The notes under the pieces: model-generated
Database searches by the model: none
What the model was told of the DNA's origin: nothing
The model's input: the letters and a program-made list of their open reading frames with translations, nothing else
Shown: positions 10,314 through 10,953 of the stretch, one piece after another
Layout: the number at the start of each line of letters is the position of its first letter
Numbering within the stretch: the first letter of the stretch is position 1
Virus genome (UHGV): UHGV-0262291
Reading direction: 5' to 3' (one strand)
From: a virus
Length of the DNA: 11,287 bases
Made by a program: the position numbers and the translations under genes

Positions 10314-10715
10314 ATGGAATTTAAAGATTTACCAATGCCATTCCAGGAAATGGCAGCGAATGTGGTTCGCTCTCAACTGGCGACTCTTGACCTGAGTACT
10401 GTAGAAAAGGAAACCATCGATACTATATCCGGTAACGTGCGTCGTGCCTTTATAGGTCTGTATGAAGAGAAGCGCCTATTCAGCGGACAGAATTCGCCTG
10501 AAAACAAGAATCAAGCAAATGATGAGAAGCTGAAACACATTATCGCCTTACTTTTGGAAGACGCAAAACGTCTACAGCAACTGGAACCAAATGCAGGCAC
10601 AGAGGCCCGCATTTGGATTGCCATGAAATCACTCAAATGTGAAAGCAGTGATTATTTCAAAACAACAATTAAAACTACTCAACTTTCGGGAGAGCTACTG
10701 AAGAAATTGCCATAA
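10314..10715 (+). CDS. Hypothetical protein, 133 aa
   Basis: ATG with GAGG SD 7 nt upstream; the last 41 nt overlap the 3' end of the convergent minus-strand gene. Confidence 0.5.
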   Translation: MEFKDLPMPFQEMAANVVRSQLATLDLSTVEKETIDTISGNVRRAFIGLYEEKRLFSGQNSPENKNQANDEKLKHIIALLLEDAKRLQQLEPNAGTEARIWIAMKSLKCESSDYFKTTIKTTQLSGELLKKLP

Positions 10716-10953
10716 GAGCATGGTCTTTCTCTTGTTCTGCAAGATGAGCATTAATACCTGGTATGGTTTTTTCAAATTTATCTATCTGTTGAATAACAAC
10801 TTCGCGGTATACGTTTGTTTTTGTACCACCAAGCGCAGCCGTTAATGCAGAAAGCATATTTAGTATCATATCAGTGCGATATGAAAGAATCCTGATAGCT
10901 TCATCTTGTTTTTCAATAATAGATTGCAGGGCCTCAATTTGCTTTTTATCCAT
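10675..10953 (-). CDS. Hypothetical coiled-coil protein, 92 aa
   Basis: ATG at 10953 with AGGAGG SD 6 nt upstream (MDKKQIEALQSIIEKQDEAIRIL...). The ORF track extends to 10992, but that start has no SD. Confidence 0.5.
   Translation of the reverse strand: MDKKQIEALQSIIEKQDEAIRILSYRTDMILNMLSALTAALGGTKTNVYREVVIQQIDKFEKTIPGINAHLAEQEKDHALMAISSVALPKVE

What the first reader, a model, noticed from the sequence alone, without database searches (positions are those of the whole stretch)
10314..10953. Convergent gene pair with 41-bp overlap of the 3' ends
The plus-strand 133-aa gene (10314..10715) and the minus-strand 92-aa coiled-coil gene (10675..10953) both have good SD sequences and overlap tail to tail. 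Such an arrangement gives obligatory antisense pairing of the two mRNA 3' ends and is unusual for simple co-linear phage operons. It could mark a boundary between modules or a mutually regulating pair.
Basis: seen in the sequence. Interest (0 to 1): 0.5.

Follow-up and report, generated by a model that had tools for sequence, protein, structure and literature searches.

The report
Backward accessory gene in prophage operon
Two real but uncharacterised small prophage genes meet tail to tail with a 41-base overlap, which is the same layout phage lambda uses for N and sieB, so the arrangement is ordinary for this kind of phage even though the proteins are unknown.

Summary
A plus-strand 133-aa ORF (10314-10715) and a minus-strand 92-aa ORF (10675-10953) both have Shine-Dalgarno sequences and overlap by 41 bp. 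Both are real genes: Salmonella prophages keep homologues with the same 41-bp overlap, and dN/dS is 0.08-0.39.

The window is a Qin/Rac-type lambdoid prophage of E. coli. The pair is a clean 656-bp indel (10312-10967) between ydfC and the dicF leader of the repressor-controlled dicBF operon; K-12 Qin is the empty site. The minus gene therefore lies backward inside a polycistronic operon. This is the position sieB holds in lambda (abuts N) and in Rac (4-bp overlap with ydaF).

At least six unrelated small minus-strand genes occupy this slot in related prophages. Overlaps range from 4 to 41 bp, or there is none. Each partner also occurs without the other, so they are not an obligate pair.

The plus protein is modular: a conserved N-terminal head, a widespread ~40-aa 'LLEDAK...NAGTEARIW' motif and a poorly constrained tail that runs into the minus gene.

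No family, fold or defence-system match gives a function.

Verdict: a new member of a known arrangement (backward accessory gene, excludon-like). Moderate-to-low interest.

The parts
10073..10291 (+). ydfC, the last conserved gene of the dicBF-type operon before the cassette.
   Evidence: PGAP annotation 'protein YdfC' in the identical E. coli record. It is 96% identical to K-12 Qin ydfA-ydfC.
10312..10967 (.). A 656-bp cassette, present here and absent in K-12 Qin. It holds both genes and the minus gene's ribosome-binding site.
   Evidence: Window 9719-10311 matches K-12 L010 1170-1762, and window 10968-11287 matches K-12 1763-2085, with nothing between them in K-12. Junction alignment.
10304..10307 (+). 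Shine-Dalgarno GAGG of the plus gene, 6 nt before the ATG. It lies in the flank shared with K-12.
   Evidence: Sequence and junction alignment.
10314..10715 (+). Plus gene, 133 aa: a modular early-left operon protein of unknown function.
   Evidence: ORF; PGAP CDS WP_160372305; PHROG 1363/6937, unknown function; 263 database relatives.
10314..10478 (+). N-terminal 'MEFKDLP' head (residues 1-55), a helical hairpin. It is conserved across cassette classes whose C-terminal parts differ.
   Evidence: for conservation. AF2 pLDDT is about 80-87 over residues 1-50. 281 IMG/VR stretches encode it.
10518..10628 (+). 'LLEDAK...EPNAGTEARIW' motif (about residues 69-105). Elsewhere it is the N-terminal head of many small phage proteins with hypervariable tails.
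   Evidence: 83 clusters at 50% identity, with the motif mostly at positions 2-45. PHROGs 30817/12693/32391/2982. DNA matches in Cronobacter phage phiES15 and Aeromonas phage pAEv1818.
10675..10715 (.). The 41-bp tail-to-tail overlap. Plus codon position 2 faces minus codon position 3.
   Evidence: The same length is kept in Salmonella. No terminator or significant RNA structure.
10675..10953 (-). Minus gene, 92 aa: a three-helix soluble protein of unknown function, lying backward inside the operon in the sieB position.
   Evidence: ORF; PGAP CDS WP_000358771; PHROG 18692; dN/dS 0.08-0.25 against Salmonella; AF2 model; no transmembrane segment.
10959..10964 (-). Shine-Dalgarno AGGAGG of the minus gene, 5 nt before the ATG. 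The overlapping cassette classes whose right junction was aligned (this one, O157, IrN, B106/x91) share it.
   Evidence: Sequence. Right-junction alignments show an identical 'CAGGAGGGTGAAATG' context in these classes.
11043..11071 (-). Weak candidate sigma-70 promoter for the minus gene (TTTTCA-17-TAAACT, 8 of 12). This is an inference only.
   Evidence: Own scan. It is positionally kept in Salmonella as TTTTCA-18-TAAGCT (alignment). It does not pass the tool's threshold, and the total counts do not exceed shuffles.
10968..11285 (+). dicF leader. This non-coding stretch of the operon is 92% identical to K-12 Qin. DicF itself begins at about 11286, the window's last two bases.
   Evidence: for the K-12 match. 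DicF scores 76.7 bits in Rfam at L001 7887-7938, which is window 11286-11337.
10251..10268 (-). Terminator-like hairpin plus T-run on the minus strand inside ydfC. It is a possible end of the minus-gene transcript. This is speculative.
   Evidence: The number of such sites is not above the shuffle expectation.

Best explanation
**What it is.** These are two genuine but separable accessory genes. They sit in the variable slot of the repressor-controlled early-left (dicBF-type) operon of a Qin/Rac-like lambdoid prophage.

**The plus gene.** It is one more cistron of that operon, in the order repressor, ydfA, ydfB, ydfC, this gene, dicF, dicB. It is made only when the LexA/S24-type repressor is removed. 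It is a modular protein: a conserved 55-aa head, a ~40-aa LLEDAK motif, and a loosely constrained tail.

**The minus gene.** It is a small helical protein gene lying backward inside the operon, exactly where lambda and Rac carry sieB.

**Inferred mechanism (not shown).** By analogy with sieB, the minus gene is transcribed from its own weak promoter in the dicF leader while the prophage is repressed. It is silenced when the derepressed operon reads through it. Silencing would come from convergent-transcription interference and RNase III attack on the sense-antisense duplex, which is excludon behaviour.

**The overlap.** It is a by-product of tight packing. The plus ORF runs on into the 3' end of the minus gene until it meets a stop codon. 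It is not a dedicated regulatory device.

**Shown versus inferred.** Shown: gene reality, cassette boundaries, position inside the operon, the slot's polymorphism and the separability of the partners. Inferred: expression timing, the promoter, the interference and any role in exclusion or defence.
For: **Context.** The window is 100% identical to an E. coli prophage at ompW. Its gene order is LexA-family repressor, ydfA, ydfB-like, ydfC, the pair, dicB, DUF1482, exonuclease, xis, int. DicF starts at the window's end.

**Clean indel.** The pair is absent from K-12 Qin at exactly this point.

**Polycistronic operon.** The K-12 operon is transcribed as one ydfABC-dicF-dicB RNA (PMC10448788). No terminator or stable structure lies at the gene junction here.

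**Same layout in known phages.** Lambda N and sieB abut. Rac ydaF and sieB overlap by 4 bp. That Rac pair is listed as a convergent excludon from RNA-seq coverage (PMC12288877).

**The slot is polymorphic.** Across 90 loci carrying the plus-gene head, the pairings were:
- A133 + a92, 41-bp overlap.
- B106 + x91, 23-bp or 32-bp overlap.
- C135 + c77, 23-bp overlap.
- B124 + b73, 11-bp overlap.
- A133/137 + q57, 76-80-bp gap.
- B124 with no minus gene.

phiES15 and pAEv1818 pair an LLEDAK protein with yet another minus ORF, with a 30-bp overlap.

**Separability.** The a92 homologue stands alone next to the repressor in Salmonella loci L099 and L100, with no LLEDAK or MEFKDLP coding anywhere in the locus.

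**Both genes are under purifying selection**.

**The plus tail is the less constrained.** In the overlap, the minus tail keeps 10 of 12 residues between E. coli and Salmonella, while the plus tail keeps 6-7 of 12. Tails after the LLEDAK motif are hypervariable across 83 clusters.
Against: - No convincing promoter for the minus gene was found. The best site scores 8 of 12, and promoter-like counts do not exceed shuffled sequence.
- No expression data were available for any of these genes.
- Within E. coli the two genes are almost always together (124 of 126 genomes). The exact 41-bp overlap survives at dS of about 0.7-0.9. A functional link could also produce this.
- The minus protein is neither homologous to SieB nor membrane-bound. 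The functional analogy therefore rests on position alone.
- A +1 frameshift truncates the minus gene in 5 of 58 IMG/VR loci, so the gene is dispensable in some lineages.
Confidence: 0.6

Rival explanations
1. Cognate two-protein module. The minus protein is a prophage-expressed exclusion, abortive-infection or toxic effector. The plus protein (its LLEDAK part or its tail) is the matching antidote, made early after induction so that the phage escapes its own weapon. This would work like P22 Esc against SieB, or like a toxin-antitoxin pair.
For: - The pair is inherited as a unit in E. coli: 124 of 126 genomes with the minus gene have the whole cassette.
- Salmonella keeps the same 41-bp overlap despite about 22% nucleotide divergence.
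- Different plus-gene C-terminal classes tend to come with different minus genes.
- a92 and x91 are distant full-length homologues (30% identity, E 7e-4), each with its own plus partner.
Against: - Each partner occurs without the other. The A-type plus gene occurs with the unrelated q57 gene, and about 41 of 168 E. coli genomes appear to carry this diverged A type. B124 plus genes occur with no minus gene. a92 occurs with no plus gene.
- The plus C-terminal parts A and B, which partner the homologous a92 and x91, show no detectable similarity, so there is no sign of co-divergence.
- Physical linkage through the overlap explains co-inheritance without any shared function.
- PADLOC, Pfam and NCBIfam find no toxin, antitoxin or defence family.
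Confidence: 0.15
2. The overlap itself is a selected regulatory device. Pairing of the two mRNA 3' ends controls the stability or translation of one or both messages, and this is why the 41 bp is kept.
For: The overlap length is identical in E. coli and Salmonella. The overlap is somewhat more conserved than the cassette as a whole, at 15-17% against about 22% difference.
Against: - Double coding constraint alone explains the extra conservation.
- Overlap length in the same slot varies freely: 0, 4, 11, 23, 30, 32 or 41 bp, or a 76-80-bp gap.
- The region has no RNA structure beyond shuffled controls (z -0.19 and +0.59).
- The operon transcript is antisense to the entire minus gene, so the 41 bp adds little.
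Confidence: 0.1
3. One of the two ORFs is not a gene but an antisense shadow of the other.
For: - Many spurious antisense ORFs of similar length exist in this window.
- Within-class polymorphism is too sparse to show constraint: 7 nonsynonymous to 4 synonymous changes in the plus gene and 4 to 0 in the minus gene.
- Several database variants of the minus protein have frameshifted C-termini or a truncated N-terminus.
Against: - The two genes overlap by only 41 bp, so neither can be a shadow of the other.
- Both show dN/dS well below 1 against Salmonella in their non-overlapping parts.
- Both have good ribosome-binding sites.
- Both have homologues in other contexts.
Confidence: 0.05

Closest known systems
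sieB in phage lambda (convergent with N) and in the Rac prophage (convergent with ydaF)
   Same: - A single gene lies backward inside the repressor-controlled early-left operon, a few genes from the repressor.
- It meets the upstream operon gene tail to tail: a 0-bp gap in lambda and a 4-bp overlap in Rac.
- An operon-strand small RNA and a cell-division inhibitor lie beyond it: kilS/kilR in Rac, dicF/dicB here.
   Different: - The 92-aa protein shows no similarity to SieB (hhalign probability below 1%).
- It lacks SieB's hydrophobic segments: maximum Kyte-Doolittle score 0.93 against 1.7-2.2.
- The overlap is longer (41 bp).
- Expression from the prophage and any exclusion activity are untested here.
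Excludon (convergent or divergent genes with overlapping transcripts and mutually exclusive expression)
   Same: The genes are convergent, overlapping and of different regulatory status. One lies inside a repressed operon whose read-through would be fully antisense to the other. The positional analogue sieB-ydaF is listed as an excludon by ExcludonFinder (PMC12288877).
   Different: Excludons are defined on transcripts. Here only the DNA layout is known. No transcript ends, RNase III dependence or anticorrelated expression were measured.
Phage morons (extra genes inserted between conserved genes of related phages)
   Same: The cassette is a clean presence/absence polymorphism relative to K-12 Qin. 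It encodes small proteins of unknown function. The slot carries different cargo in different prophages.
   Different: Classical morons bring their own promoter and terminator. Here no convincing promoter or terminator is inside the cassette. The minus gene's upstream flank from 10968 onward, where the weak candidate promoter lies, is shared with the empty K-12 site, while its ribosome-binding site is inside the cassette and identical in the other overlapping classes aligned.
Type I toxin-antitoxin loci with convergent 3'-overlapping RNAs (for example txpA/RatA of Bacillus prophage-like elements; recalled from general knowledge)
   Same: Convergent transcription units overlap at their 3' ends in a prophage.
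   Different: Those pair a small hydrophobic toxin with a non-coding RNA. Here both partners are protein-coding and under purifying selection. Neither is hydrophobic. The window's real type I system is hok/sok at 3782-4107.

Membership tests
SieB superinfection-exclusion protein family | Sequence similarity to lambda, P22 or Rac SieB | tested here: not met
   hhalign of the minus-protein alignment against Rac SieB and lambda SieB gives probability 0.1-0.2%. No Pfam hit.
SieB superinfection-exclusion protein family | Membrane protein with hydrophobic segments | tested here: not met
   Maximum 19-residue Kyte-Doolittle score is 0.93 for the 92-aa protein, against 2.19 (Rac SieB) and 1.73 (lambda SieB).
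SieB superinfection-exclusion protein family | Backward position in the early-left operon, convergent with the upstream operon gene | tested here: met
Excludon | Neighbouring genes on opposite strands whose coding or untranslated regions overlap | tested here: met
   The ORFs overlap by 41 bp. No terminator separates the operon from the minus gene.
Excludon | Overlapping transcripts with mutually exclusive expression and RNase III processing | not testable with these tools
   This needs strand-specific RNA-seq with and without induction, and an rnc mutant.
Moron | Present or absent between conserved flanking genes of related phages | tested here: met
   K-12 Qin is the empty site with precise junctions.
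Moron | Own promoter and terminator, allowing expression from the repressed prophage | tested here: inconclusive
   Only a weak 8-of-12 promoter candidate was found, and it lies outside the cassette. Site counts are not above shuffles. No terminator at the 3' end.
Type II toxin-antitoxin or other known defence system | Match to a known toxin, antitoxin or defence protein family | tested here: not met
   PADLOC gives nothing significant. Pfam and NCBIfam give nothing above cut-off; the best is RelB-like at E 0.011, 15.9 bits against a cut-off of 50.
Type II toxin-antitoxin or other known defence system | Obligate co-occurrence of the two genes | tested here: not met
   Each gene is found without the other.
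dicBF-type (Qin/Rac) early-left operon | Repressor gene followed by ydfA/B/C, then DicF sRNA and dicB, on the same strand | tested here: met
   PGAP annotation. DUF1391 scores E 1.5e-27. DicF scores 76.7 bits in Rfam. The flanks are 92-96% identical to K-12 Qin.

The most novel reading that the evidence does not exclude
The ydfC-dicF (sieB-equivalent) slot may be a hotspot of interchangeable small anti-phage or exclusion effectors, with at least six unrelated families including a92. These would be expressed from the repressed prophage. The modular plus-strand proteins (a MEFKDLP or LLEDAK head with swappable tails) would be matching early-expressed neutralisers or counter-defence factors. On this reading the convergent overlap would tie an effector to its antidote both physically and transcriptionally.
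Probability: 0.12. Interest if true: 0.6.

Novelty: new member of a known kind. Interest (0 to 1): 0.3.

Why it matters
The result recasts an apparent oddity as a recurring design rule of lambdoid prophages. One slot in the early-left operon, next to the immunity region, accepts a backward-facing accessory gene. The operon's own read-through can switch that gene off on induction.

The work also defines two things:
- A set of widespread, wholly uncharacterised small proteins in that slot. The exact 92-aa protein is seen on at least 1000 contigs.
- A modular head-plus-variable-tail family of early proteins.

Both are reasonable candidates for screens of prophage-encoded exclusion or defence and counter-defence functions.

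The cassette sits between ydfC and dicF. It may therefore also affect production of the DicF sRNA and of DicB in the roughly 2% of complete E. coli genomes that carry it.

Tried and rejected
**Function by homology.**
- Pfam, NCBIfam, PADLOC and PHROGs on both proteins and on five other slot proteins gave only 'unknown function' PHROGs.
- A PDB sequence-profile search found nothing for the minus protein and only E > 0.3 noise for the plus protein.
- Foldseek of the minus-protein model against PDB found no match with E <= 0.001, only generic helical bundles.
- No fold search was run on the plus-protein model, because its C-terminal half has pLDDT around 50.

**SieB homology.** Rejected.

**A terminator or structured element at the overlap.** None found.

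**A strong promoter for the minus gene.** None found in the window or out to dicB.

**Co-divergence of the plus C-terminal part with the minus protein.** Not supported. A and B are not detectably similar, while a92 and x91 are.

**Wider species sampling of the minus family.**
- The genome-contig scan found no relative.
- The IMG/VR scan returned only near-identical E. coli copies.

**Within-class polymorphism as a test of constraint.** Too few variable sites: 15.

**Literature search by protein accession.** No papers.

**Not used.** The third large protein search and the metagenome scan, because they could not supply function.

Full report
**1. The observation**

The ORF table and the sequence show a plus-strand ORF at 10314-10715 (133 aa, ATG). 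They also show a minus-strand ORF whose ATG at 10953 gives 92 aa and which ends at 10675. The two share 10675-10715, which is 41 bp.

GAGG lies 6 nt before the plus ATG. AGGAGG lies 5 nt before the minus ATG. The longer GTG-initiated version of the minus ORF (to 10992) starts in DNA that is also present at the empty site in K-12, so it is unlikely to be used. NCBI's pipeline calls exactly the two ORFs described, both as hypothetical proteins, in a 100%-identical E. coli chromosome.

ORF length alone proves nothing here, because the window is full of spurious antisense ORFs of 40-115 aa. I therefore tested conservation.

**2. Both ORFs are genes**

Salmonella enterica prophages carry a 93-aa protein that is 71-73% identical to the minus protein. 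It converges on a 71-aa protein homologous to residues ~69-133 of the plus protein. The overlap is again exactly 41 bp.

| Comparison (Nei-Gojobori, non-overlapping codons) | dN/dS | dS |
|---|---|---|
| Minus gene, E. coli vs Salmonella | 0.08-0.23 | 0.7-1.0 |
| Plus-gene C-terminal part, E. coli vs Salmonella | 0.13-0.39 (two of three comparisons; one saturated) | 0.85-1.59 |

In the overlap, plus codon position 2 faces minus position 3, and the reverse. Six to seven of the 41 nt differ. The minus tail keeps 10 of 12 residues and the plus tail 6-7 of 12. The minus frame is therefore the better protected, although the numbers are small.

Within E. coli the cassette is nearly clonal, with 15 variable sites, which is uninformative. 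A +1 A insertion at about 10884 truncates the minus gene in 5 of 58 IMG/VR loci.

**3. Where it sits**

The window is a Qin/Rac-type lambdoid prophage integrated next to ompW.

- **Minus strand:** the early-right operon. It runs from a cro/ydaS-like gene through ydaT and a replisome organiser to hok/sok, rusA and a Q-like gene.
- **Plus strand:** from 8712, a LexA/S24-type repressor, ydfA (DUF1391), a ydfB-like gene and ydfC. Then comes the pair, then about 330 nt of non-coding DNA. DicF follows (Rfam 76.7 bits, starting at window 11286), then dicB, DUF1482, an exonuclease, xis and int.

Alignment with K-12 Qin is collinear up to 10311 and resumes at 10968. The pair is therefore a clean 656-bp presence/absence cassette between ydfC and the dicF leader.

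In K-12 the operon is transcribed as one ydfABC-dicF-dicB RNA from the DicA-repressed promoter, and DicF is cut out of it (PMC10448788). Here no terminator-like site or significant RNA structure lies at the gene junction. The operon RNA must therefore cross the entire minus gene in antisense, not just 41 nt.

**4. The layout is canonical, not unusual**

- In phage lambda, sieB (34482-35036, forward) abuts N (35037-35438, reverse) tail to tail, inside the PL operon.
- In K-12 Rac, racR-ydaG-ydaF converge on sieB with a 4-bp overlap. The operon-strand sRNA kilS and then kilR follow.
- That sieB-ydaF pair is listed among the convergent excludons called from RNA-seq coverage by ExcludonFinder (PMC12288877).

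The 92-aa gene occupies the same slot. It is not a SieB homologue and has no hydrophobic segment.

**5. The slot is polymorphic and the partners are separable**

A search of IMG/VR with the plus protein's first 55 residues returned 80 loci. Together with loci fetched otherwise, this gave 90 with the head.

| Plus-gene type | Minus gene | Overlap or gap | Loci |
|---|---|---|---|
| A133 | a92 | 41 bp | 51 |
| A133 | a92 with the frameshift | 41 bp | 5 |
| B106 | x91 | 23 bp or 32 bp | 10 |
| B124 | none | not applicable | about 14 |
| B124 | b73 (intact) | 11 bp | 2 |
| C135 (O157:H7 type) | c77 | 23 bp | 2 |
| A133/137 | q57 (unrelated) | 76-80-bp gap | 4 |

The overlapping classes whose right junction was aligned share the same minus-gene translation start context, CAGGAGGGTGAAATG.

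Cronobacter phage phiES15 and Aeromonas phage pAEv1818 have the order repressor, LLEDAK protein, then a further unrelated convergent ORF with a 30-bp overlap. That ORF is unannotated in phiES15.

In Salmonella loci L099 and L100 an a92 homologue (82% identity over its first ~72 residues) lies directly beside the repressor gene. No LLEDAK or MEFKDLP coding is present anywhere in those loci.

In complete E. coli genomes:
- The a92 gene is in 126 of 5426.
- The whole cassette is in 124.
- The A-type plus C-terminal part is in 168. Of these, 41 are at 90-95% identity, which probably corresponds to the q57-linked type seen.

The pair is therefore tightly linked within one lineage of cassettes but is not obligate.

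**6. The proteins**

- **Minus protein.** AlphaFold2 gives three helices (3-41, 49-59, 69-84) at mean pLDDT 77. It has an invariant core, YRTDMILNMLSALTAALGGTK.NVYREVV.QQI. It is a distant full-length homologue of x91 (30% identity, E 7e-4).
- **Plus protein.** It has a confident N-terminal helical hairpin, a disordered linker at 56-70, and a low-confidence C-terminal half.
- **The LLEDAK motif.** Residues ~69-105 form the motif ELKHxIALLLEDAKRLQQxEPNAGTEARIW. An exhaustive profile-free scan found it in 83 clusters at 50% identity. It is nearly always at the N-terminus of 40-220-aa proteins whose tails are unrelated to one another.
- **Tail shuffling.** Tails move between the two kinds of head. 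The tail of the O157-type C135 protein and the tail of an LLEDAK-headed protein both match PHROG 23433.

No Pfam, NCBIfam, PADLOC, PDB-sequence or PDB-fold match assigns a function to either protein. Public names are all 'hypothetical protein'.

**7. Most likely mechanism**

*Shown:*
- Two real genes.
- A cassette inserted inside a polycistronic, repressor-controlled operon.
- The minus gene backward in the sieB position.
- No terminator at the junction.
- A polymorphic slot.
- Separable partners.
- A loosely constrained plus tail.

*Inferred:* While the repressor holds the operon off, the minus gene is expressed from a weak promoter in the dicF leader. The best candidate is TTTTCA-17-TAAACT at 11071-11043, which is kept in position in Salmonella. 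After derepression, read-through from the operon promoter collides with and pairs to the minus transcript. This silences it while the plus protein, DicF and DicB are made, which is excludon behaviour. The overlap is a packing by-product. I put this at about 0.6.

*Rivals:*
- A cognate effector-antidote or TA-like pair: 0.15.
- The overlap as a selected regulatory device: 0.10.
- One ORF spurious: 0.05.

**8. Novelty and score**

The arrangement is a further instance of a known design (lambda N/sieB, Rac ydaF/sieB, morons, excludons). What is new is the cargo and the documentation of the slot's polymorphism and of the head-plus-variable-tail family. I found no description of either in the searched literature.

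Classification: new member of a known kind. Interest: 0.3. The most novel reading not excluded is a hotspot of small exclusion effectors paired with early neutralisers. I give it a probability of about 0.12; it would merit about 0.6 if true.

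Noticed in passing
window 3782-4107 (minus strand): A hok/sok type I toxin-antitoxin locus lies in the nin-like region of the prophage. Rfam finds sok at 3932-4107 (121.7 bits). A Hok-family ORF lies at 3782-3994 and is annotated as a Hok toxin in the identical E. coli record.
   Followed up: partly
window 10968-11285, especially 10954-11100: The non-coding dicF leader is 92% identical to K-12 Qin and about 85-90% identical to Salmonella Rac-like prophages, which is better conserved than the neighbouring coding DNA. On the minus strand it folds well beyond shuffled controls (-52.5 kcal/mol, z -3.4) into four hairpins. On the plus strand z is only -1.45. Its role (DicF processing, minus-gene 5' UTR, or other) is unknown.
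   Followed up: partly
window 11063-11080 (plus strand): The hairpin CCCTGAAAAGTCAGGG shares the string CCCTGAAAAG with lambda boxB (GCCCTGAAAAAGGGC, recalled from memory). It is conserved in Salmonella. It could be a nut-like site in a phage group with no known N protein, or a coincidence.
   Followed up: no
window 10527-10622; L097 2501-2596; L098 2501-2596: The DNA encoding the LLEDAK motif is 85% identical in Cronobacter phage phiES15 and 79% identical in Aeromonas phage pAEv1818, while the flanks are unrelated. The motif heads 83 protein clusters with hypervariable tails. It behaves like a conserved linker for module exchange, or like a functional head domain.
   Followed up: partly
L097 2735-3022 (minus strand; Cronobacter phage phiES15, JQ780327): An unannotated 95-aa ORF converges on gene phiES15_010 with a 30-bp overlap. 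Its homologue is annotated in Aeromonas phage pAEv1818. It has a weak, below-cut-off match to the YmfI phage family (NF051477, E 2.4e-8).
   Followed up: partly
L004 587-1065, L005 205-676, L016 1897-2561, L007 5011-6413, L099 532-1094: The stretch between the repressor gene and ydfA or the pair carries other inserted cargo in related prophages: RelB/RelE, HigB/HigA, ParE/Phd, and a DUF6932-containing pair. The whole immunity-left region therefore behaves as an accessory-gene hotspot.
   Followed up: no
window about 10884 (A-run 10884-10886): A +1 A insertion in 5 of 58 IMG/VR copies shifts the frame of the first 24 codons of the minus gene, leaving a 76-aa product from an internal ATG. This is either decay of the gene or a sequencing artefact in a homopolymer.
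   Followed up: partly
window 8712-9485 (plus strand): The repressor here is a full LexA/cI-type protein with HTH_3 and Peptidase_S24 domains, so it is probably SOS-cleavable. K-12 DicA is HTH-only (135 aa). Related loci carry either type in front of the same ydfABC genes.
   Followed up: no
window 134-511 (minus strand): The 125-aa ORF has the DPPY motif of an N6-adenine/N4-cytosine DNA methyltransferase but is too short for a complete enzyme, so it is probably truncated or interrupted.
   Followed up: no
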